This document shows, piece by piece, positions 12,845 through 23,009 of a stretch of DNA of 64,000 bases. Source of the DNA: Escherichia phage teqhal; the sequence record MN895435.1. The stretch is one strand, 5' to 3'. Position 1 is the stretch's first letter. Each line of letters begins with the position of its first letter. The position numbers were made by a program, and so were the translations under genes. Under the pieces are notes generated by a model that did not search any database, was not told the origin of the DNA, and was given only the letters and a program-made list of their open reading frames with translations.

Positions 12845-13180
12845 ATGTCTGAAGTACAACAGCTACCAATTCGTGCTGTCGGTGAATATGTTATTTTAGT
12901 TTCTGAACCTGCACAAGCCGGTGATGAAGAAGTTACAGAATCAGGACTTATTATCGGTAAACGTGTCCAAGGTGAAGTTCCTGAACTGTGTGTAATTCAC
13001 TCTGTCGGTCCTGATGTTCCTGAAGGTTTTTGTGAAGTTGGTGATTTGACTTCTCTTCCAGTTGGTCAAATTCGAAACGTTCCGCATCCTTTTGTAGCTC
13101 TGGGTCTTAAGCAGCCAAAAGAAATTAAACAAAAATTCGTTACCTGTCATTATAAAGCTATTCCGTGTCTTTATAAGTGA
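12845..13180 (+). CDS. 31: co-chaperonin (GroES analogue) for capsid folding
   Basis: 111 aa [22 protein letters not shown]...; matches recalled T4 gp31. Confidence 0.92.
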
Positions 13181-13188
13181 TATAAATA
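13181..13188 (+). promoter_or_regulatory. late promoter motif TATAAATA
   Basis: Exact TATAAATA immediately after gene 31 stop, ~140 bp upstream of rIII. Confidence 0.45.
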
Positions 13189-13327
13189 ATAATATGAATT
13201 GGGTGTCGGAATAATAAGTTAACCGAACAATTCTATGTGGTAGTCTACAACTGAGAGATCTGTCGAAAGAAGATGAAATTCAGAAGAACGTGACTACCGA
13301 GTTTTAATCTCTAACGAGAATTTTTAA

Positions 13328-13576
13328 ATGATTAAACAATTACAACACGCTCTTGAACTGCAACGAAACGCATGGAATAATGGTCACGAAAACTATGGCG
13401 CATCTATTGATGTTGAAGCCGAAGCTCTTGAAATCCTGCGTTATTTCAAACATCTGAATCCTGCTCAAACTGCATTAGCTGCTGAGCTTCAGGAAAAAGA
13501 TGAACTTAAATATGCTAAGCCTTTGGCTTCTGCTGCACGAAAAGCAGTTCGTCACTTTGTGGTAACACTGAAGTAA
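13328..13576 (+). CDS. rIII: lysis inhibition accessory protein rIII
   Basis: 82 aa MIKQLQHALELQRNAWNNGHENYG...; matches recalled T4 RIII. Confidence 0.9.
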   Translation: MIKQLQHALELQRNAWNNGHENYGASIDVEAEALEILRYFKHLNPAQTALAAELQEKDELKYAKPLASAARKAVRHFVVTLK

Positions 13577-13821
13577 TTTATTGGAGATTCACTGCCTTAG
13601 TGTGAGCTAAAATCGAGGAGCCATCGAACTGTCTGATTAATGATTTGCGAATCATTATAGTTTTAAGACCCCGGCAGTTTTATGGTGTACCTCTTGAATG
13701 TGAATGATGACGGGTTTATGGTTATCCTGGTCGTTAAATATTCAAAAACCTATGTTCCCCTTGAGGGCTTGCGCAGGCAATGCCAATAAGTCCTGCATTT
13801 TCATTTAAAAGAGAATTTATA

Positions 13822-13998
13822 ATGGCAAAACAAGCTAAAGCAAAGAAAGCAGTTGAAAAGAAAGTTGGTGATTCTAAACGCGCTGGTTACAAGCGTGGGT
13901 CGAACTCTCGTATCAATCAAACTGTTGAGAAGATCATGCGCCGAGCACGTGCGGTTCTTCGAGATGATGCTTCTCGTTTTGGTAAGCAGAAAGCATAA
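13822..13998 (+). CDS. small lysine/arginine-rich basic protein (58 aa; T4 30.9 position)
   Basis: MAKQAKAKKAVEKKVGDSKRAGYKRGSNSR...; followed directly by a strong terminator. Confidence 0.55.
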   Translation: MAKQAKAKKAVEKKVGDSKRAGYKRGSNSRINQTVEKIMRRARAVLRDDASRFGKQKA

Positions 13999-14002
13999 GT
14001 TG

Positions 14003-14032
14003 AGGACTCCTTCGGGAGTCCTTTTTTATTTT
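14003..14032 (+). terminator. rho-independent terminator
   Basis: aggactcc-ttcg-ggagtcct stem-loop followed by ttttttatttt. Confidence 0.8.
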
Positions 14033-14051
14033 CCAAAGATTGCACAAAGTT

Positions 14052-14081
14052 GTTTACAGTATGGTTCCTTTGTGATAGTAT
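14052..14081 (+). promoter_or_regulatory. early promoter
   Basis: GTTTAC 14052-14057, spacer, TG-a-TAGTAT. Confidence 0.6.
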
Positions 14082-14108
14082 TATCTTACACAAACAAAGG
14101 AGAATAAA

Positions 14109-14441
14109 ATGAAAACGATTAATCTGAACGCTACAGTTAAAACTAAATGCTTCAACGGTAAATATGATGAAACTATGTGGTTCTTAATGGCAGTTGAAGG
14201 TGATATTATTGAAGTAGAAACAACAGAAGGTATGGGAACAGATTTCACCTTTACAATTCAAGTTCATAATTTCTTTACTGGTTGGATTTATGAATTGAAT
14301 ACAGTAATCGTTGGAAAAATTGAACAAAATGAATTAGGCGAATGGCATTATGTTACAGCTCGCCAACGTGCCGAACGCTTAATTGAGAAGATGAAAAAAG
14401 TTGGTAAACTTGACATGCAGCATTGGAAAGTAGTAAAATAA
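14109..14441 (+). CDS. hypothetical protein (110 aa)
   Basis: ORF with SD aaggag. Confidence 0.65.
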   Translation: MKTINLNATVKTKCFNGKYDETMWFLMAVEGDIIEVETTEGMGTDFTFTIQVHNFFTGWIYELNTVIVGKIEQNELGEWHYVTARQRAERLIEKMKKVGKLDMQHWKVVK

Positions 14442-14443
14442 TT

Positions 14444-14472
14444 GTTTACTTTGGTACAGGATATGATATTAT
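14444..14472 (+). promoter_or_regulatory. early promoter overlapping a GGTACAGG/CCTGTACC inverted repeat
   Basis: GTTTAC 14444-14449, spacer, TG-a-TATTAT; inverted repeat 14453-14460 / 14476-14483. Confidence 0.6.
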
Positions 14473-14509
14473 ATACCTGTACCGCAATTAAACATCTCGG
14501 AGAATAAAA

Positions 14510-14875
14510 ATGAACTACATCAACTTTGAACGTAAATATGTTTCTAATGGTATTGCAGGTTCTATTGATACTATTTGCCTTTGGAAACATCAAAATGGAT
14601 CAGTATGCGAAATTGAACAGTATATGACTCCTAACTACGTTTATATGCGATTTGAAAACGGTATCACGGTTTCAATCACGATGGAAGGTTCCAACTTTAA
14701 AATCGCTCTGGATGATGATTTCCGTCAACGCGATTTAGGGACTCATCCTTGCTGGAATGGTGTTAATCGTAAACTCTTAGTTAAAACTTGGATTCGTCAT
14801 ATTCTGAGTAACAAAGCCAAACCTGAGCATCTTGAAGCAATCTTTGATGTAGTTCTTAATGAATTTGATATTTAA
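14510..14875 (+). CDS. hypothetical protein (121 aa)
   Basis: ORF with SD ggag. Confidence 0.65.
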   Translation: MNYINFERKYVSNGIAGSIDTICLWKHQNGSVCEIEQYMTPNYVYMRFENGITVSITMEGSNFKIALDDDFRQRDLGTHPCWNGVNRKLLVKTWIRHILSNKAKPEHLEAIFDVVLNEFDI

Positions 14876-14884
14876 AATAAAATG

Positions 14885-14900
14885 AGGGGCTTTGGCCCCT
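14885..14900 (+). other. intergenic hairpin (aggggc-tttg-gcccct) without U-run
   Basis: Stem-loop directly before SD gagga of the next ORF. Confidence 0.4.
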
Positions 14901-14916
14901 TACTGAGGAAAATGTT

Positions 14917-15204
14917 ATGTTTATGACTACTTATTTTGATACCCGTAAAAACTTCTGCGAAGTAGTTTTCTCAAAGTCGCCTAAAGACCTTCCTGCACAT
15001 TTGCAACCTACTAGCGAATCGATTAAAAACTACGTTGATGTGGTTTGTCCTTTAGAGTTTCGTACTGTAAATGGGCATGATACTTTAGCTATCACTAAAC
15101 TCAATCGCGAAATTGACATTGACCCTTCAATTGCGCGTGAAATTAACATTTCTGATATTGGCGGCGGTAATGTTAAATCGCACGGTTTTCAGATGAGGTT
15201 CTAA
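14917..15204 (+). CDS. hypothetical protein (95 aa)
   Basis: ORF with SD gagga 14905-14909. Confidence 0.6.
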   Translation: MFMTTYFDTRKNFCEVVFSKSPKDLPAHLQPTSESIKNYVDVVCPLEFRTVNGHDTLAITKLNREIDIDPSIAREINISDIGGGNVKSHGFQMRF

Positions 15205-15401
15205 TGAAATTCTTTTTAGGTCAAACTGTTGAATTAAAGGGAGTTGGTATACCTGGATTAATTTCTAAGGTTCTACCTCCATTTAAATGGAGTGGTATTC
15301 AAATAAAAGAGGCTTATATTGTTTCCTGGGTAGATGGAAATGAAGACCTTCGTATGGGTGATGAATTATCTCCTATTTACGGATTAAAGGAACTAGTATG
15401 A
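15204..15401 (+). CDS. hypothetical protein (65 aa)
   Basis: ORF, overlapping junctions. Confidence 0.5.
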   Translation: MKFFLGQTVELKGVGIPGLISKVLPPFKWSGIQIKEAYIVSWVDGNEDLRMGDELSPIYGLKELV

Positions 15402-15604
15402 ATATAATTAATAAGATTTTTGGAATTCAGTACATTAAGGTCACATATAAAGTAACAGATAAAAATCCATATACTGATGAACATGAAGAACCACAAGTTG
15501 AGTCTATTATATTAGAAAAGGACCCTAACTGGCCAGTTGAATTTCGTCTTCCTTGCTATGGTCATTGGGCTGATGTTGAAATTATAAGTATTGAAAATGT
15601 CTGA
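15398..15604 (+). CDS. hypothetical protein (68 aa)
   Basis: ORF. Confidence 0.5.
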   Translation: MNIINKIFGIQYIKVTYKVTDKNPYTDEHEEPQVESIILEKDPNWPVEFRLPCYGHWADVEIISIENV

Positions 15605-16055
15605 GTTAGAGATTAGAAGCAATTTTAGGTGGCCATCATGTGCATTAAGTAATTTCGCCCATTGGCCTTTCGTTATGGATGGTATTCAATTTGGAGGTCT
15701 CGAAGGATTCCTTCAAGGGTGTAAGGTGAAAAATGTTGAACAACAACGTCGTATATTTGGGTTATCCGGTCTTGCCGCCCAACAAGCTGGAAGGTCTTAT
15801 GCAAGAGCTCAGGACCGTGGGACCCTCTTCTGGCTTGGAGTTCCGTTTTCAAGATACTCCCCAGCGTGGAAAGAATTATACACAAATGCATATTTTGAAG
15901 CAGCGATCCAAAACAGGGGCTTTCGTGATGCATTACAAGCCTCGAAAGGAAAAGTTTTGAAGCACAGCATGGCTAGTGGTCTAACAAAAGATGATACAAT
16001 ACTAACCGAAGCTGAATTTATTGATGTGTTAAACCTATTAAGAGACTCTCTATGA
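15597..16055 (+). CDS. 30.3: NADAR / YbiA-like (DUF1768) domain protein, T4 30.3 position
   Basis: 152 aa from ATG 15597; family assignment by recall of the T4 30.3 annotation and sequence resemblance, not verified. Confidence 0.6.
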   Translation: MSELEIRSNFRWPSCALSNFAHWPFVMDGIQFGGLEGFLQGCKVKNVEQQRRIFGLSGLAAQQAGRSYARAQDRGTLFWLGVPFSRYSPAWKELYTNAYFEAAIQNRGFRDALQASKGKVLKHSMASGLTKDDTILTEAEFIDVLNLLRDSL

Positions 16056-16888
16056 AGCCTACTATTTTAACTGATATTGATGGAGTATGTTTAAGCTGGC
16101 AATCAGGACTTCCTTATTTTGCCCAGAAATATAATCTTCCGTTGGAACATATTTTAAAAATGATCCAAGATGAGAAATTTATTTCTCCAGGTAAACTTTT
16201 TAATTGTGATGAAGAACTTGGCGTCAAGTTAATTGAAAAATACAATCGTTCAGATTTTATTCGTTACTTGTCTCCATATAAAGATGCCCTGTGTGTAATT
16301 AACAAATTAAAAGAAGATTATAATTTTGTAGCTGTTACAGCATTGGGTGATTCTATTGACGCTCTGCTGAATCGTCAATTTAATTTGAATGCTCTTTTTC
16401 CTGGTGCCTTCTCAGAAGTATTGATGTGTGGTCATGATTCTTCAAAAGAAGAGTTGTTTAAAAAGGCAAAAGAGAAATATAACGTAATTTGTTATATTGA
16501 CGATCTCGCTCACCACTGCGATCATGCGAGTGAAATATTACGTGTTCCTGTGTATTGGATGGCTCGAGGGGAACGTGACAGTATTCCAAAAACCGCTCAG
16601 CGAGTTTATACATGGAACGATGTAGAGAATAAGCTTTTTTCACCAAAGGAAAATAAAGAAAGTTTTGATAGTGAAAAAGCTATAAAAGATGTAATTGAAA
16701 AGATGATTAAAAATGATTCTTTTCGTTGGAACACTACCTGGAGAACTCCTGGATTTAATCCTTATAATCCATATCATCCATATCAGACACATCCGTTTCA
16801 GACATGGAACTATATTAAACCTGGTGGCATAGAGTATTTGTATAATAGACCTACTAGTGGTGATAATATTTTCCAAGGAGCATTCTAA
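16052..16888 (+). CDS. 30.2: HAD-superfamily nucleotidase-like protein (T4 30.2 position)
   Basis: 278 aa; N-terminal HAD motif I LTDIDGV. Confidence 0.65.
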   Translation: MKPTILTDIDGVCLSWQSGLPYFAQKYNLPLEHILKMIQDEKFISPGKLFNCDEELGVKLIEKYNRSDFIRYLSPYKDALCVINKLKEDYNFVAVTALGDSIDALLNRQFNLNALFPGAFSEVLMCGHDSSKEELFKKAKEKYNVICYIDDLAHHCDHASEILRVPVYWMARGERDSIPKTAQRVYTWNDVENKLFSPKENKESFDSEKAIKDVIEKMIKNDSFRWNTTWRTPGFNPYNPYHPYQTHPFQTWNYIKPGGIEYLYNRPTSGDNIFQGAF

Positions 16889-17157
16889 TGTTTGTTGTTC
16901 ACACTATTTATGAAAATGAAGGTAATACTACACGTGATTACGGTCACGTAAATCAATTTTTTAGATGCAATCCAGAATTCCGAGCTCAAAAAGACGAACG
17001 AATTTTTAAAAAATGTGTAGAGCAAGGTTTCATTTACGTCAAACACTGGATGCAAGGAAATAAAGTTAGAACCACGTACCACAGGTCTTTGACTGAGCTT
17101 AATGATGAATTGATTTATAATAGAGCTGTAAACCAAACTCTAAAGGATGAACAATGA
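16888..17157 (+). CDS. hypothetical protein (89 aa, T4 30.1 position)
   Basis: ORF. Confidence 0.55.
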   Translation: MFVVHTIYENEGNTTRDYGHVNQFFRCNPEFRAQKDERIFKKCVEQGFIYVKHWMQGNKVRTTYHRSLTELNDELIYNRAVNQTLKDEQ

Positions 17158-18617
17158 TTCTTAAAATTCTGAACGAAATAGCATCTATTGGTTCAACTAA
17201 GCAGAAGCAAGCAATTCTTGAAAAGAATAAAGATAATGAATTGCTTAAACGAGTATATCGTCTGACTTATTCTCGTGGGTTGCAGTATTATATCAAGAAA
17301 TGGCCTAAATCTGGTATTGCTACCCAGAGTTTTGGAATGTTGACTCTTACCGATATGCTTGACTTCATTGAATTCACGTTAGCTACTCGGAAATTGACCG
17401 GAAATGCGGCAATTGAGGAATTAACTGGATATATTGCTGACGGTAAAAAAGATGATGTTGAAGTTTTGCGTCGGGTGATGATGCGAGACCTTGAATGCGG
17501 TGCTTCAGTATCTATTGCAAACAAAGTTTGGCCAGGTTTAATTCCTGAACAACCTCAAATGCTTGCAAGTTCTTATGATGAAAAAGGCATTAATAAGAAT
17601 ATCAAATTTCCAGCTTTTGCCCAGTTAAAAGCTGATGGAGCTCGGTGTTTTGCTGAAGTTAGAGGTGATGAATTAGATGATGTTCGTCTTTTATCACGAG
17701 CTGGTAATGAATATCTAGGATTAGACCTTCTCAAAGAAGAGTTAATCAAAATGACCGCTGAAGCCCGCCAGATTCATCCAGAAGGTGTGTTAATTGATGG
17801 CGAATTGGTATACCATGAGCAAGTTAAAAAGGAGCCAGAAGGCCTAGATTTTCTTTTTGATGCTTATCCTGAAATTAGTAAAGCTAAAGAATTCGCCGAA
17901 GTAGCTGAATCACGTACTGCATCTAATGGCATCGCCAATAAATCTTTAAAGGGAACCATTTCTGAAAAAGAAGCACAATGCATGAAGTTTCAGGTCTGGG
18001 ATTATGTCCCGTTGGTAGAAGTATACGGTCTTCCAGCATTTCGCTTGAAATATGATGTACGTTTTTCTAAATTAGAACAAATGACATCAGGCTATGATAA
18101 AGTAATTTTAATTGAAAACCAGGTAGTAAATAACCTAGATGAAGCTAAGGTAATTTATAAAAAGTATATTGACCAAGGTCTTGAAGGTATTATTCTCAAA
18201 AATATCGATGGATTATGGGAAAATGCTCGTTCGAAAAATCTCTATAAATTTAAAGAAGTAATTGATGTTGATTTAAAAATTGTAGGAATTTATCCTCACC
18301 GTAAAGACCCTACTAAAGCAGGTGGATTTATTCTTGAGTCAGAGTGTGGAAAAATTAAGGTAAATGCTGGTTCAGGCTTAAAAGATAAAGCCGGCGTAAA
18401 ATCACATGAACTTGACCGTACTCGCATTATGGAAAACCAAAATTATTATATTGGAAAAATTCTAGAGTGCGAATGCAACGGTTGGTTAAAATCTGATGGC
18501 CGCACTGATTACGTTAAATTATTTCTTCCAATTGCGATTCGTTTGCGTGAAGATAAAACTAAAGCTAATACATTCGAAGATGTATTTGGTGATTTTCATG
18601 AGGTAACTGGTTTATGA
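17154..18617 (+). CDS. 30: ATP-dependent DNA ligase
   Basis: 487 aa MILKILNEIASIGSTKQKQAIL...; adenylation lysine motif KADGAR; matches recalled T4 DNA ligase. Confidence 0.96.
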   Translation: MILKILNEIASIGSTKQKQAILEKNKDNELLKRVYRLTYSRGLQYYIKKWPKSGIATQSFGMLTLTDMLDFIEFTLATRKLTGNAAIEELTGYIADGKKDDVEVLRRVMMRDLECGASVSIANKVWPGLIPEQPQMLASSYDEKGINKNIKFPAFAQLKADGARCFAEVRGDELDDVRLLSRAGNEYLGLDLLKEELIKMTAEARQIHPEGVLIDGELVYHEQVKKEPEGLDFLFDAYPEISKAKEFAEVAESRTASNGIANKSLKGTISEKEAQCMKFQVWDYVPLVEVYGLPAFRLKYDVRFSKLEQMTSGYDKVILIENQVVNNLDEAKVIYKKYIDQGLEGIILKNIDGLWENARSKNLYKFKEVIDVDLKIVGIYPHRKDPTKAGGFILESECGKIKVNAGSGLKDKAGVKSHELDRTRIMENQNYYIGKILECECNGWLKSDGRTDYVKLFLPIAIRLREDKTKANTFEDVFGDFHEVTGL

Positions 18618-18802
18618 AAGCTTACTTAGAAACAGTTGTCGTAGCTCAAAAAGAAGGTGGAGATGTTTCTACTTCTGTATCACAAGTCGTTCTCGAATTT
18701 GTAGATGCATATGCTTATAATAAATTTACAGAAACATTTGATGCCTATGAAAAAGGTCCAAAGTTTGAAATATACCGTACTCTCTTACCACTAGATTATT
18801 AA
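18614..18802 (+). CDS. hypothetical protein (62 aa)
   Basis: ORF overlapping ligase stop. Confidence 0.5.
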   Translation: MKAYLETVVVAQKEGGDVSTSVSQVVLEFVDAYAYNKFTETFDAYEKGPKFEIYRTLLPLDY

Positions 18803-18824
18803 AGGCCTTCGGGCCTTTAATTTT
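18801..18824 (+). terminator. rho-independent terminator-like hairpin
   Basis: aaaggcc-ttcg-ggccttt followed by aatttta. Confidence 0.65.
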
Positions 18825-18831
18825 ATAAATA
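18824..18831 (+). promoter_or_regulatory. late promoter TATAAATA upstream of alt
   Basis: Exact TATAAATA ~22 bp before the alt start. Confidence 0.7.
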
Positions 18832-18854
18832 GAATAAACACTAGAGAGGATATG

Positions 18855-20948
18855 ATGGAACTCATTACAGAATTATTTGACGAAGATACTACTCTTCCGA
18901 TTACAAACTTAAATCCAAAGAAGAAAATACCACAAATTTTTTCAGTTCACGTTGATGATGCAATTGAACAACCAGGCTTTCGTTTATGTACCTATACATC
19001 TGGAGGTGATACTAATCGCGATTTAAAGATGGGCGATAAAATGATGCATATTGTTCCTTTTACATTAACTGCTAAAGGTTCAATTGCTAAATTGAAAGGT
19101 CTTGGTCCAAGCCCAATTAATTATATCAATTCAGTTTTTACTGTTGCAATGCAAACAATGCGTCAGTATAAAATTGATGCCTGTATGCTCCGTATTCTTA
19201 AGTCTAAAACTGCTGGTCAAGCTCGACAAATTCAAGTTATTGCTGATAGACTTATCCGTAGTCGTTCAGGTGGAAGATACGTCCTTCTTAAGGAACTCTG
19301 GGATTATGATAAAAAGTATGCATATATTCTTATACATCGCAAAAATGTATCACTAGAAGACATTCCAGGAGTTCCGGAAATTAGTACCGAGCTCTTTACT
19401 AAGGTTGAATCGAAGGTCGGTGATGTTTATATCAATAAAGATACTGGAGCTCAAGTAACTAAAAATGAGGCAATTGCAGCATCTATTGCACAAGAAAATG
19501 ATAAACGTTCTGACCAAGCTGTAATCGTTAAAGTTAAAATTTCCCGTAGAGCAATTGCACAAAGTCAGTCATTGGAATCTTCTAGATTTGAAAGTGAATT
19601 ATTCCAGAAGTATGAATCTACCGCAGCTAATTTCAATAAACCTGCTACTGCTCCTTTAATTCCCGAAGCAGAAGAAATGAAGCTTGGAATTAATTCATTA
19701 GCTTCTAAAACTAAGGCAGCAAAAATTATTGCCGAAGGAACTGCGAATGAACTTCACTATGACTATAAATTCTTTTCAAAAAGTGAGGTTAATGAAGTTT
19801 CCGAAAAAATTAAAGATGTAATTCTTAATGCGATCAAAAATGAACCAACTACTTCAATAAAATGTTTAGAGAAATACGCAGCAGCTGTCAATCAATTCTT
19901 TGAAAAATATAAAGATAATTGGCTTGATAAACATAATAAAACTCGTAAAGGGCAGCCAGATGAAGTCTGGGAAGAAATAACTAAAAATTCCTGGAACGCA
20001 GCAAAAACTAAATTCCTCAAACGAATGATTTATAGTTTTTCTGGAATTGGTGCAGGCCCAATGATTGATATTACTATTGCCCGCGATGGTTCTAAATATA
20101 CTCCATCACAAAAGCGTGGCATTAGAGAATATTGCGGTTCAGGATATACTGACATCAATAATCTTCTTTTAGGTCGTTACAATCCAGAACGATATGATGT
20201 AATGAGTGAAAAAGAAATTGAATCTGCTATAAATAATTTAGATTCAGCTTTTGAAAATGGTGACCGTATACCAGAAGGCATTACAGTTTATCGTGCTCAA
20301 AGCATGACTGCTCCTATATACGAAGCACTAGTTAAAAATAAAGTGTTCTATTTCAGAAATTTTGTATCTACTTCTTTAACTCCTATCATTTTTGGACGTT
20401 TTGGAATTACACATGCTGGTATTGGTCTTTTAGAACCAGAAGCTCGTAACGAATTAACGGTTGATAAAAATGAAGAAGGAATAACTATTAATCCAAACGA
20501 AATAAGAGCGTATAAAGAAAATCCTGAATACGTTAAAGTTCAAATAGGATGGGCAATTGATGGAGCTCATAAAGTTAATGTTGTATATCCAGGAAGTCTC
20601 GGAATAGCAACAGAAGCTGAAGTTATTCTACCGCGCGGATTGATGGTTAAAGTTAATAAAATAACTGATGCTTCTAATAATGACGGAACCACGTCTAATA
20701 ATACAAAACTCATTCAAGCTGAAGTTATGACCACAGAAGAACTCACCGAATCGGTAATCTATGACGGAGACCATTTAATGGAAACCGGCGAAGTAGTTGC
20801 AATGACAGGTGATATTGAAATAGAAGACAGAGTTGACTTTGCATCATTTGTTTCATCAAATGTTAAACAGAAAGTAGAATCATCTCTTGGAATTATTGCG
20901 TCTTGCATAGATATTACAAACATGCCTTACAAGTTCGTTCAAGGATAA
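18855..20948 (+). CDS. alt: Alt-family ADP-ribosyltransferase (capsid-packaged), copy 1
   Basis: 697 aa from MELITELFDE...; C-terminal R-S-ExE motifs (YRAQ, VSTSL, EAEVILPRG). Confidence 0.85.
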   Translation: MELITELFDEDTTLPITNLNPKKKIPQIFSVHVDDAIEQPGFRLCTYTSGGDTNRDLKMGDKMMHIVPFTLTAKGSIAKLKGLGPSPINYINSVFTVAMQTMRQYKIDACMLRILKSKTAGQARQIQVIADRLIRSRSGGRYVLLKELWDYDKKYAYILIHRKNVSLEDIPGVPEISTELFTKVESKVGDVYINKDTGAQVTKNEAIAASIAQENDKRSDQAVIVKVKISRRAIAQSQSLESSRFESELFQKYESTAANFNKPATAPLIPEAEEMKLGINSLASKTKAAKIIAEGTANELHYDYKFFSKSEVNEVSEKIKDVILNAIKNEPTTSIKCLEKYAAAVNQFFEKYKDNWLDKHNKTRKGQPDEVWEEITKNSWNAAKTKFLKRMIYSFSGIGAGPMIDITIARDGSKYTPSQKRGIREYCGSGYTDINNLLLGRYNPERYDVMSEKEIESAINNLDSAFENGDRIPEGITVYRAQSMTAPIYEALVKNKVFYFRNFVSTSLTPIIFGRFGITHAGIGLLEPEARNELTVDKNEEGITINPNEIRAYKENPEYVKVQIGWAIDGAHKVNVVYPGSLGIATEAEVILPRGLMVKVNKITDASNNDGTTSNNTKLIQAEVMTTEELTESVIYDGDHLMETGEVVAMTGDIEIEDRVDFASFVSSNVKQKVESSLGIIASCIDITNMPYKFVQG

Positions 20949-20951
20949 ATC

Positions 20952-23009
20952 ATGGAACTTATTACAGAATTATTTGACGGCGCTTCGGCGCCGGTTGTTA
21001 ACTTAAATCCTAAGCATAAAATACCACAAATTTTTGCTATTCAAGCCGGCGAAGAAAGTGTGCTTCCTGGATTTAGATTTTGTACATACACCTCTGGCGG
21101 TGATACAAATAAAAACGTTAAGCCAGGCGATAAAATGATGCATATCGTAATGATAGGCGTCAACGAGAAATTATCGCTGGTTAAGCTTAGAAACTTGGGT
21201 GGAAATCCAATTGGCGTCATTAATGCGGTTTTTGATACTGCTCTTCAAACAATGAAGCAGTATAAAATCGACGCATGCTTATTCCGCGTACTAAAAAGTA
21301 AAACAAATGGCGCAGCTCGTCAAATGCAAGTTATTGCTGACCGTTTAGTACGTACTAAAGGAGCAGGTCGATATGTTCTTTTAAAGGAAATCTGGGATTA
21401 TGATAAAAAGTACGCATATATTATGGTTTACCGTAAAAATGCCAAATTAGAAGACATTCCAGGTGTACCTCCTATTTCAACTGAGTTATTCACAAAAGTT
21501 GAATCAAAGGTTGGTGATGTTTATGTAGACGTTAAAACAGGTAATGCTGTTCCTAAAGCTGTTGCTGTTGCTGCTTCTATTGCTTTAGAAAATGATAAGC
21601 GCACGGATCAAGCTGTTATTCAGAAAACTAAAATTAGTCGTCGATTAGCAGCGCAAGCTCAATATTCTACTGTTGATGCTTCACTTCAGGGTGATAGCTT
21701 CGCTGCTAAGAAATATCAAGAGTTTGAATCTAAAGTTCCGGTATATAAAGCAGAAGGACCAATGAACTCTGGCGTTATTCAGATTGGTTCAAACTTTAGC
21801 AAAGGAGCTATCGGTGGTATGAGAAGTGCTTCTCGTTTTAAATCTAGCGATTATGAACTAGAAAGTTTCCGAAATCATATTGCATTAGCCCATGCACGTT
21901 TACGTGATCCATCTATCAAGTTGCAGAGCGATATAACATATCAAGGTTCTCAAGAATATTTAAAGAATAAAGAATTCTTTGATTATAAAACTGATAAAAT
22001 TTTAAGCGATCTTGCTGATATTAATATTTCTAATAGCTTTGATGTTATTAAGAAAATTATCAATGATTTGGTTAAAGGTTCTAAAGCTACGCCAGATGAA
22101 AAGACAGCTATTATTCAATTTGTCATGAATGGCATTTATAAATTGATTAATGAATCTGCTGCTCAGGCATATGAATACGCAAGCACTGAAGTAACTCCAA
22201 AAGGACTGACTCAGGCTGAGTCTGATGTAATTGAAGATTATTGTGCAGATTCATATGTTGAAATGAACTCGTTCCTTTTGGGTAAACCAGATTCTACCCG
22301 TGAAGAATATATGGAACGAGCTATTAAGCACATTGAGACGTTGGATTCTGCATTCGCTAAAGGTTCAGTTCTTCCTCCAGGAACTACGCTTTATCGTGGA
22401 CAAGAAGTTACCTTTAAAACTTTGCGTCATAACATTGAAAACAAAATGTTCTATTTCAAGAACTTCGTATCGACATCGCTTAAACCAAATATCTTCGGTG
22501 AGCATGGTAAAAACTATATGGCTCTAGATGATTCCGGTGCAGTATTTTCTGGCGAAGGAGAAGGTTCTGTTGATGCAGAAGATTTAATGCATATGGGTAG
22601 TCATTCTGCATATGCTAATGAAGATGCTGAAACTAGCGTAGGTATGGTAATTAAAGGGGCTGAGCGAATCAAAGTTATCGTTCCAGGTCATTTATCAGGA
22701 TTTCCATCAGAAGCTGAAGTTATTCTACCACGTGGAATTTTGTTAAAGATTAATAAAGTAAGCACGTACATGATGAAAGAAACTGCTTATAACAAGTATC
22801 TAATCGAAGGCACAATCGTTCCTCCTTCTGACCAATTAGAAGAATCAGTATATGATGGCGACCATTTAATGGAAACTGGTGAAGTTCGTCCAATGGCTGG
22901 ATTTAATCAATTCCTTGTAGAAGAATCAAAAGAAGAGGAAAACGAAGTTTCTCAAATCTTGGCTTCTTTGGTTAACATCAACGGAATGTCTAAAAAGTTC
23001 AAAATGTAG
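20952..23009 (+). CDS. Alt-family ADP-ribosyltransferase paralogue, copy 2
   Basis: 685 aa, same N-terminus MELITELFD and conserved N-terminal ~230 aa; R-S-ExE motifs (YRGQ, VSTSL, EAEVILPRG); divergent middle region. Confidence 0.85.
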   Translation: MELITELFDGASAPVVNLNPKHKIPQIFAIQAGEESVLPGFRFCTYTSGGDTNKNVKPGDKMMHIVMIGVNEKLSLVKLRNLGGNPIGVINAVFDTALQTMKQYKIDACLFRVLKSKTNGAARQMQVIADRLVRTKGAGRYVLLKEIWDYDKKYAYIMVYRKNAKLEDIPGVPPISTELFTKVESKVGDVYVDVKTGNAVPKAVAVAASIALENDKRTDQAVIQKTKISRRLAAQAQYSTVDASLQGDSFAAKKYQEFESKVPVYKAEGPMNSGVIQIGSNFSKGAIGGMRSASRFKSSDYELESFRNHIALAHARLRDPSIKLQSDITYQGSQEYLKNKEFFDYKTDKILSDLADINISNSFDVIKKIINDLVKGSKATPDEKTAIIQFVMNGIYKLINESAAQAYEYASTEVTPKGLTQAESDVIEDYCADSYVEMNSFLLGKPDSTREEYMERAIKHIETLDSAFAKGSVLPPGTTLYRGQEVTFKTLRHNIENKMFYFKNFVSTSLKPNIFGEHGKNYMALDDSGAVFSGEGEGSVDAEDLMHMGSHSAYANEDAETSVGMVIKGAERIKVIVPGHLSGFPSEAEVILPRGILLKINKVSTYMMKETAYNKYLIEGTIVPPSDQLEESVYDGDHLMETGEVRPMAGFNQFLVEESKEEENEVSQILASLVNINGMSKKFKM

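What the first reader, a model, noticed from the sequence alone, without database searches (positions are those of the whole stretch)
15597..16055. NADAR/YbiA-like domain protein in the 30.x early cluster: candidate counter-defence enzyme
The 152-aa protein at the T4 30.3 position appears to belong to the NADAR/DUF1768 family; I assign this by recall of the T4 annotation and sequence resemblance rather than a profile search. Members of this family are reported to remove ADP-ribose from guanine in DNA, reversing DarT-type toxin modification. It sits among other nucleic-acid repair and modification genes (HAD nucleotidase-like 30.2, DNA ligase, Alt ARTs).
Basis: partly seen in the sequence, partly recalled or inferred. 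Interest (0 to 1): 0.45.

Follow-up and report, generated by a model that had tools for sequence, protein, structure and literature searches.

The report
Known phage anti-DarT enzyme AdfN

Summary
The ORF is real: ATG at 15597, TGA ending at 16055, 152 aa. It overlaps the 30.4 stop and the 30.2 start, in exact T4 synteny. It is 149/152 identical to T4 gp30.3.

A direct Pfam search returns PF08010 (Phage_30_3), not PF08719 (NADAR). Deeper tests still place it in the NADAR superfamily:
- Profile-profile comparison with the YbiA family: 97.3% probability, E = 1.6e-11.
- 20 of 45 family members individually match PF08719.

The active-site residues E36 and K43, and the phage-specific H123, are invariant in about 80 homologs. 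The C-terminal helix that is lost in the defective RB69 allele is present here.

The function is published. T4 gp30.3 hydrolyses guanine-ADP-ribose on DNA in vitro (Cihlova 2024). Renamed AdfN, it is necessary and sufficient to overcome DarTG1, but not DarTG2 (Johannesman 2025).

Verdict: interpretation supported, already known, low interest. The open residue is the unidentified T-even factor that AdfN needs for full activity.

The parts
15597..16055 (+). adfN (T4 gene 30.3 orthologue), 152-aa stand-alone NADAR-superfamily DNA ADP-ribosylglycohydrolase
15702..15704 (+). Codon GAA = E36, ADP-ribose-contacting catalytic glutamate
   Evidence: Invariant in 81/81 homologs. Aligns with YbiA E48. 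E36A impairs AdfN-T4 (PMC11825919).
15723..15725 (+). Codon AAG = K43, catalytic lysine
   Evidence: Invariant in 81/81 homologs. Aligns with YbiA K55. K43A impairs AdfN-T4.
15963..15965 (+). Codon CAC = H123, last-strand histidine that marks the phage (gp30.3) NADAR branch; replaces Glu of the YbiA branch and Asp of DarG1
   Evidence: Invariant in 80/80 complete homologs, while neighbouring position 122 varies freely. Falls at YbiA E125/H126 in hhalign, with the register ambiguous by one residue. Described as the phage hallmark in PMC11543638 and PMC11125620.
16008..16052 (+). Residues 138-152, the C-terminal alpha-helix that is missing from the defective RB69 allele; intact here
   Evidence: DSSP helix 138-151 in the model. 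No frameshift relative to T4. The RB69 truncation of the last 15 residues reduces function.
15597..15604 (+). 8-nt overlap of the adfN start with the 30.4 stop (ATGTCTGA): likely translational coupling
   Evidence: Read directly from the sequence.
16052..16055 (+). ATGA overlap of the adfN stop with the 30.2 start
   Evidence: Read directly from the sequence.
16052..16888 (+). Context, not shown to be part of the system: gene 30.2, a HAD-superfamily phosphatase-like protein with a disordered C-terminal tail
   Evidence: Invariant D8xD10G11, T96, K132, D150D151. Model pLDDT 82.6. 108 HAD matches in the PDB, with 5'(3')-deoxyribonucleotidases giving the lowest rmsd.

Best explanation
The gene is an intact orthologue of T4 adfN (gene 30.3). 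It encodes a small, single-domain enzyme of the NADAR superfamily.

How it works: when a host carrying the DarTG1 toxin-antitoxin defence is infected, the DarT1 toxin attaches ADP-ribose to guanine bases of phage DNA, which blocks replication. AdfN binds the ADP-ribose through E36 and K43, with H123 in the last strand completing the active site. It hydrolyses the N-glycosidic bond between ribose and guanine. This restores unmodified DNA and allows replication.

It acts on the DNA lesion and does not bind the toxin. It does not reverse thymidine ADP-ribosylation by DarT2.

What is shown and what is inferred:
- Shown here: identity, fold, residues, intactness and synteny.
- Shown in the literature for the 98%-identical T4 protein: biochemical activity and the anti-DarTG1 phenotype.
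- Inferred: that the same holds for this phage.
For: - 149/152 identity to T4 gp30.3, with the three differences (H22Q, R107K, M125I) at variable alignment columns.
- Identical synteny with T4.
- PF08010 at 232 bits.
- AlphaFold model pLDDT 93.9, pTM 0.89.
- hhalign to a single YbiA sequence 94.4%, and to the YbiA family 97.3%, E 1.6e-11 over 126 columns.
- The family profile's best PDB sequence hit is YbiA. 20/45 members hit PF08719.
- E36, K43 and H123 are invariant in about 80 homologs spanning 37-99% identity.
- Literature: phage gp30.3 proteins are a NADAR branch with His in the last strand (PMC11543638). T4 gp30.3 removes guanine-ADPr but not thymidine-ADPr in vitro (PMC11125620). Deleting adfN makes T4 and T2 sensitive to DarTG1 by about 4 logs. 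Ectopic AdfN rescues RB69. There is no two-hybrid interaction with DarT1 (PMC11257639 and PMC11825919).
Against: - Nothing was measured for this particular phage.
- Direct hmmscan of this sequence does not hit PF08719 NADAR at E <= 1, so membership rests on profile-profile and fold evidence.
- In my hhalign, H123 pairs with YbiA H126 and K122 with E125. The claimed equivalence of H123 to the catalytic Glu depends on a one-residue register next to a gap, and I could not superpose coordinates.
- In the peer-reviewed paper, E36A and K43A caused only partial loss of rescue.
- AdfN-T4 does not neutralise DarT1 in uninfected cells and barely rescues T5 or Bas25, so the enzyme alone is not the whole mechanism.
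Confidence: 0.93

Rival explanations
1. It is a housekeeping YbiA-type N-glycosidase that acts on small molecules, such as reactive riboflavin-pathway intermediates, rather than on DNA.
For: YbiA is the best sequence-level PDB match and a top structural match. E. coli ybiA is annotated 'N-glycosidase YbiA'.
Against: The YbiA-branch Glu in the last strand is replaced by an invariant His. T4 gp30.3 acts on guanine-ADPr DNA, and its deletion has a DarTG1-specific phenotype. The published phylogeny puts AdfN closest to DarT1-associated NADARs, not to YbiA.
Confidence: 0.02
2. Its main natural target is ADP-ribosylation from a source other than DarT1. Candidates are other guanine-directed DNA ADP-ribosyltransferases, RNA ADP-ribosylating defences, or off-target modification by the phage's own Alt, ModA or ModB enzymes. 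In this view DarTG1 is only one substrate source.
For: The enzyme recognises the lesion and not the toxin. T4 gp30.3 cleaves ScARP-made G-ADPr in vitro. The authors raise versatility themselves. Two full-length Alt ADP-ribosyltransferase paralogues lie 3-7 kb downstream in the same gene string.
Against: There are no data for any other toxin. Proximity to alt is ordinary T4 synteny. In 61 of 80 related loci no 30.2 or ligase homologue lies within 4 kb, so the T-even 30.3-30.2-ligase-alt arrangement is not retained there (alt itself was not searched for in these loci). The DarTG1 phenotype of the deletion is strong, about 4 logs.
Confidence: 0.04
3. This copy is a decayed or inactive allele, like RB69's.
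For: Disrupted alleles exist. RB69 has a +1 T at nt 411. The NR1 record has a +1 T after nt 229. Several database homologs are only 86-126 aa.
Against: The window's gene is full length and in frame. It has all invariant residues and the C-terminal helix, and only three conservative substitutions relative to the functional T4 allele.
Confidence: 0.01

Closest known systems
AdfN (anti-DarT factor NADAR) = bacteriophage T4 gp30.3, NP_049816; Pfam PF08010 Phage_30_3
   Same: 98% identical, same length, same synteny, same catalytic residues E36, K43 and H123, and an intact C-terminal helix. By every test available here it is the same gene.
   Different: Three substitutions (H22 for Q, R107 for K, M125 for I), all at variable positions. 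The activity of this allele has not been measured.
DarG1, the DarT1-associated NADAR antitoxin (BC4488 branch; E. coli C7 NADAR; G. lovleyi NADAR, PDB 8bat)
   Different: AdfN is an orphan, with no adjacent darT: its neighbours are 30.4 and the HAD protein 30.2. It lacks the N-terminal extension. It has His where DarG1 has the catalytic Asp (D171). It cannot act as an antitoxin in uninfected cells.
E. coli YbiA and the YbiA/NADAR family (PF08719; PDB 2b3w); Phytophthora NADAR (PDB 8bau)
   Different: About 17-21% identity. Last-strand Glu is replaced by His. The C-terminal D-x-Y-W-G-D-G-G segment that is invariant in YbiA is absent. YbiA is a LexA-regulon or housekeeping protein that does not protect against DarT1 in vivo.
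Other phage NADARs (NADAR-Bas32, NADAR-Bas60) and AdfA (T4 gp61.2)
   Same: All counter DarTG1.
   Different: The Bas32 and Bas60 NADARs belong to other NADAR clades and work without a T-even infection context. AdfA is a non-enzymatic toxin binder, and it is not encoded in this window.

Membership tests
NADAR superfamily (YbiA fold) | [quoted passage not shown] | tested here: met
NADAR superfamily (YbiA fold) | Detectable sequence homology to bona fide NADAR/YbiA proteins (PF08719) | tested here: met
   Direct hmmscan of this one sequence gives no PF08719 hit at E <= 1. However, hhalign of the family against the YbiA family gives 97.3%, E 1.6e-11. 20/45 family members hit PF08719, best 1.5e-7. 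A YbiA-family HMM hits only this ORF in the window, E 2e-4. Reciprocal PF08010 hits occur on YbiA-family proteins.
NADAR superfamily (YbiA fold) | Conserved ADP-ribose-binding Glu and Lys (E-x-x-x-Q-x-x-K) | tested here: met
   E36 and K43 are present, invariant in 81/81 homologs, and align with YbiA E48 and K55.
NADAR superfamily (YbiA fold) | Guanine-ADP-ribose glycohydrolase activity | not testable with these tools
   Shown in vitro for T4 gp30.3 (PMC11125620; PMC11825919). Not measured for this allele.
Phage NADAR / gp30.3 / AdfN branch (PF08010) | PF08010 match above the gathering score | tested here: met
   232.4 bits against a cut-off of 36, covering profile positions 1-138 of 138.
Phage NADAR / gp30.3 / AdfN branch (PF08010) | Histidine in the last beta-strand in place of the Glu (YbiA) or Asp (DarG1) | tested here: met
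   H123 is invariant in 80/80 complete homologs. It lies in strand 120-123 of the model. Its exact register against YbiA E125/H126 is ambiguous by one residue.
Phage NADAR / gp30.3 / AdfN branch (PF08010) | Orthology to T4 30.3: high identity, same position between 30.4 and 30.2, full length including the C-terminal helix | tested here: met
   149/152 identical. Synteny matches T4. Helix 138-151 is present. No frameshift.
Phage NADAR / gp30.3 / AdfN branch (PF08010) | Confers resistance to DarTG1 during infection | not testable with these tools
   Shown for T4 and T2 by deletion, and for RB69 by complementation.
DarG1 antitoxin (DarT1-associated, BC4488-branch NADAR) | Encoded in an operon with a darT1 toxin gene | tested here: not met
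   The immediate neighbours are the 30.4 and 30.2 (HAD) orthologues. The gene sits in the T4 30.x string.
DarG1 antitoxin (DarT1-associated, BC4488-branch NADAR) | Catalytic Asp in the last strand and an N-terminal extension | tested here: not met
   His at the position. The protein is 152 aa and the NADAR domain starts at about residue 3. 8bat is 219 aa.
YbiA subfamily | Conserved Glu in the last strand (E125 of YbiA) | tested here: not met
   The aligned residues are K122/H123. Position 122 is variable (T, K, S and others).

The most novel reading that the evidence does not exclude
AdfN needs an unidentified T-even-encoded factor for full activity (PMC11825919). That factor might be encoded by its conserved downstream neighbours, so that AdfN, the translationally coupled HAD phosphatase-like gp30.2, and DNA ligase together form a lesion-reversal and repair module for ADP-ribosylated DNA.

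Ligase and gp30.2 are the only gene families that recur next to adfN-like genes outside the close T-even group: 7 and 6 of 66 distant loci respectively. The other 60 or so distant loci have neither, and gp30.2 tracks ligase more tightly than it tracks adfN. The link is therefore weak.
Probability: 0.06. Interest if true: 0.5.

Novelty: already known. Interest (0 to 1): 0.1.

Why it matters
As an annotation it matters modestly. Public records of the closest phages label this gene 'hypothetical protein', including RefSeq T4 itself. It can be named adfN with confidence.

Its intactness predicts that this phage resists DarTG1-type defence. That is useful when choosing phages for hosts that carry DarTG systems.

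It adds no new biology. The NADAR assignment dates from 2012-2023, the biochemistry from 2024, and the counter-defence role from 2024-2025.

The unsolved part is why AdfN-T4 works fully only inside T-even infections. This window offers only weak neighbourhood hints on that.

Tried and rejected
- Direct family searches. Pfam returned PF08010 only. NCBIfam returned nothing. PHROGs returned phrog_652, 'unknown function'. None names NADAR, so I moved to profile-profile and fold tests.
- The family profile against PDB sequences found YbiA only weakly (E 0.01) and missed 8bau and 8bat entirely. A single member, P0073, did no better.
- The sigma-70 promoter and terminator scan of 13100-18900 was uninformative: 22 promoter-like sites against 20.8 expected, and 4 terminator-like sites against 3.4. 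I make no promoter claim. 'Early cluster' rests on general T4 knowledge and was not tested.
- I searched the window for the other anti-DarT1 factor, AdfA (T4 gp61.2). There was no hit (best E 0.5), as expected because the window corresponds to a different part of the T4 map.
- Guilt by association for the unknown potentiating factor: clustering 884 neighbour ORFs from 80 loci found no family linked to adfN in most distant phages.
- I tried to confirm that the near-identical phage KarlGJung (H7) is one of the BASEL phages tested for DarTG1 resistance. The literature search did not settle it, so I make no such claim.
- I considered whether the annotated overlapping gene 30.3' is a second product of the locus. 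I rejected it as a constrained gene.
- I could not superpose model coordinates on 8bau to fix the structural register of H123.

Full report
**Observation.** The window holds a 152-aa ORF on the + strand, from ATG 15597 to the TGA at 16053-16055. Its start overlaps the stop of the upstream ORF by 8 nt (ATGTCTGA). Its stop overlaps the ATG of the downstream ORF (ATGA). The surrounding gene order is identical to that of T4 record NC_000866, read on the opposite strand: dCMP deaminase, 31.2, 31.1, gp31, rIII, 30.9 through 30.4, this ORF, 30.2, 30.1, DNA ligase, alt.1, alt. About 665 phage records carry the region. The closest, vB_Eco_EH2, is 99.1% identical over 2.3 kb, and nearly all annotate the gene as 'hypothetical protein'. 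The protein is 149/152 identical to T4 gp30.3.

**Family assignment.**
- A plain search does not return NADAR. Pfam gives PF08010 'Phage_30_3' (E 1.7e-69, 232 bits against a cut-off of 36) and no PF08719 hit even at E <= 1. NCBIfam gives nothing. PHROGs gives an unnamed family.
- I aligned 45 full-length homologs spanning 35-86% identity (A2). The profile's best hit among all PDB sequences is E. coli YbiA (E 0.01), aligned over the SNFA...EGFLQ..K motif.
- 20 of the 45 members individually match PF08719, best E 1.5e-7.
- hhalign of A2 against the YbiA sequence gives 94.4%. Against a 31-member YbiA-family alignment it gives 97.3%, E 1.6e-11 over 126 columns, which is almost the whole protein.
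- Some YbiA-family proteins carry reciprocal PF08010 hits.
- A YbiA-family HMM run over the six-frame translation of the whole window hits this ORF and nothing else.

**Active site and intactness.**
- E36 and K43 are the residues mutated in the AdfN paper. Both are present, align with YbiA E48 and K55, and are invariant in 81/81 homologs from 80 viral contigs plus the window.
- H123 is invariant in 80/80 complete homologs, while the adjacent position 122 varies freely. The literature describes a His in the last strand as the hallmark of phage 'gp30.3' NADARs, replacing Glu in the YbiA branch and Asp in DarT1-associated NADARs.
- In my hhalign, H123 pairs with YbiA H126 and K122 with E125, next to a one-residue gap. 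The exact equivalence is therefore uncertain by one position, and I could not superpose coordinates.
- The three differences from T4 (H22Q, R107K, M125I) fall in variable columns.
- The C-terminal helix (residues 138-151) is the piece lost in the RB69 frameshift allele. It is intact here, and there is no indel relative to T4.

**What is already known.**
- De Souza and Aravind (cited) and Schuller et al. 2023 (PMC11543638) placed phage gp30.3 proteins in the NADAR superfamily. Schuller et al. showed that NADARs reverse DarT1 guanine ADP-ribosylation.
- Cihlova et al. 2024 (PMC11125620) showed that T4 gp30.3 hydrolyses guanosine-ADPr but not thymidine-ADPr in vitro, yet does not rescue DarT1 toxicity in uninfected cells. 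That paper lists its construct as 'residues 1-208', although T4 gp30.3 has 152 residues. I cannot explain the mismatch.
- Johannesman et al. (preprint PMC11257639; Nat Commun 2025, PMC11825919) mapped DarTG1 resistance to gene 30.3 by phage crosses and renamed it adfN. Deletion sensitises T4 and T2 about 10^4-fold. Ectopic AdfN rescues RB69. AdfN does not bind DarT1 in a two-hybrid assay. It removes ADP-ribose from DNA in vitro. It has no effect on DarTG2.
- The peer-reviewed version softens two preprint claims. E36A, K43A and the RB69-like truncation give partial loss, not total loss. T4-GT7 with unmodified cytosine DNA is still protected, so specificity for hydroxymethylcytosine DNA is not the reason AdfN-T4 works fully only in T-even infections. 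The authors propose an unknown T-even 'potentiating factor'.

**Mechanism.** DarT1, activated on infection, ADP-ribosylates guanine in phage DNA and blocks replication. AdfN binds the ADP-ribose through E36 and K43, with H123 in the last strand, and hydrolyses the ribose-guanine bond, which restores the DNA. Sequence, fold, residues and intactness are shown here. Activity and phenotype are shown in the literature for a 98%-identical protein. Transfer to this phage is an inference, and I hold it at about 0.93.

**Context.**
- gp30.2 (16052-16888) carries the four HAD motifs as invariant columns: D8xD10G11, T96, K132, D150D151. It folds confidently over residues 1-224, with a disordered Pro/Asn/Tyr-rich tail.
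- It matches 108 HAD structures at E <= 1e-3, and the 5'(3')-deoxyribonucleotidases give the lowest rmsd. Pfam does not recognise it.
- Ligase follows at 17154-18617.
- Two tandem full-length Alt-like ADP-ribosyltransferase genes, 41% identical, lie at 18852-20948 and 20952-23009. T4 keeps only fragments of the second, alt.-1 and alt.-2.

**Does the neighbourhood bear on the unknown factor?**
- Among 80 related loci, the 30.3-30.2-ligase arrangement is confined to T-even-like genomes plus a few others: 19 loci have 30.2 and 19 have ligase within 4 kb.
- Clustering 884 neighbouring ORFs shows that ligase and gp30.2 are the only families that recur beside adfN-like genes outside the close group, in 7 and 6 of 66 distant loci. 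No family accompanies adfN in most distant phages.
- Where they co-occur at a distance, 30.2 abuts ligase rather than adfN.
- AdfN therefore behaves as a stand-alone, mobile module. The idea that gp30.2 or ligase is its partner is only a weak lead.

**Verdict.** The thing is already known. The residual value is a confident name for a gene usually left 'hypothetical', a prediction of DarTG1 resistance for this phage, and a few side observations.

Noticed in passing
window 15733-15960 (+), overlapping adfN in another frame: The T4-annotated gene 30.3' (NP_049817, 'internal translation in a different reading frame') is conserved here as a 75-aa ORF but shows no sign of purifying selection. Its ATG is replaced by ACG, ATT or ATC in 8 of 15 relatives, and one relative has an internal stop. 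All 6 window-versus-T4 differences inside it change its amino acids, while 5 of those 6 are silent in adfN. It is probably not a real gene.
   Followed up: yes
window 18852-20948 and 20952-23009 (+): Two tandem full-length Alt-like ADP-ribosyltransferase paralogues (698 and 685 aa, 41% identical). T4 has one alt plus the degenerate fragments alt.-1 and alt.-2 at this place, so this phage keeps the ancestral duplicate intact.
   Followed up: partly
window 16052-16888 (+), gene 30.2: A HAD-superfamily phosphatase-like protein that Pfam and NCBIfam fail to recognise. All four HAD motifs are invariant. The fold is closest to 5'(3')-deoxyribonucleotidases. The C-terminal tail of about 55 residues is disordered and rich in Pro, Asn, Tyr and Trp. 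In distant phages it stays next to DNA ligase rather than next to adfN. Its function is unknown.
   Followed up: partly
L084 (phage vB_Eco_NR1, LR990704) 1198-1657; also proteins P0004-P0007, P0013, P0016, P0017, P0037: The NR1 record has a +1 T insertion after nt 229 of adfN, which shifts the frame at codon 77, and the gene is annotated as a 107-aa fragment. Several other Tequatrovirus records hold 86-126-aa fragments. These are either recurrent natural losses of adfN, as in RB69, which would predict DarTG1 sensitivity, or assembly errors.
   Followed up: partly
loci L009-L015, L051 (RB69-like group) compared with window 14500-18600: Mosaic divergence. AdfN is 84-86% identical and gp30.7 is 91-93% identical to the window's proteins, while the genes between and beside them are far more diverged: gp30.4 39-49%, gp30.1 44-45%, ligase 62-70%. 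This suggests stronger constraint on adfN, or recombinational exchange of it.
   Followed up: no
window 14002-14023 (+) and 14410-14439 (+): A strong terminator-like hairpin (9-bp stem, then a T-run) lies after the 30.9-like ORF. A near-consensus sigma-70-like promoter (TTGACA-18-TAAAAT, 11/12) lies just upstream of the 30.7 orthologue. Together they could delimit the transcription unit that includes adfN. The scan as a whole was not enriched over shuffles.
   Followed up: no
literature: PMC11125620, Methods 4.2: The in vitro study of T4 gp30.3 lists its construct as 'residues 1-208', but T4 gp30.3 and this orthologue are 152 aa. Some metagenomic homologs are 201 aa (P0027, P0028). The mismatch is unexplained.
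   Followed up: no
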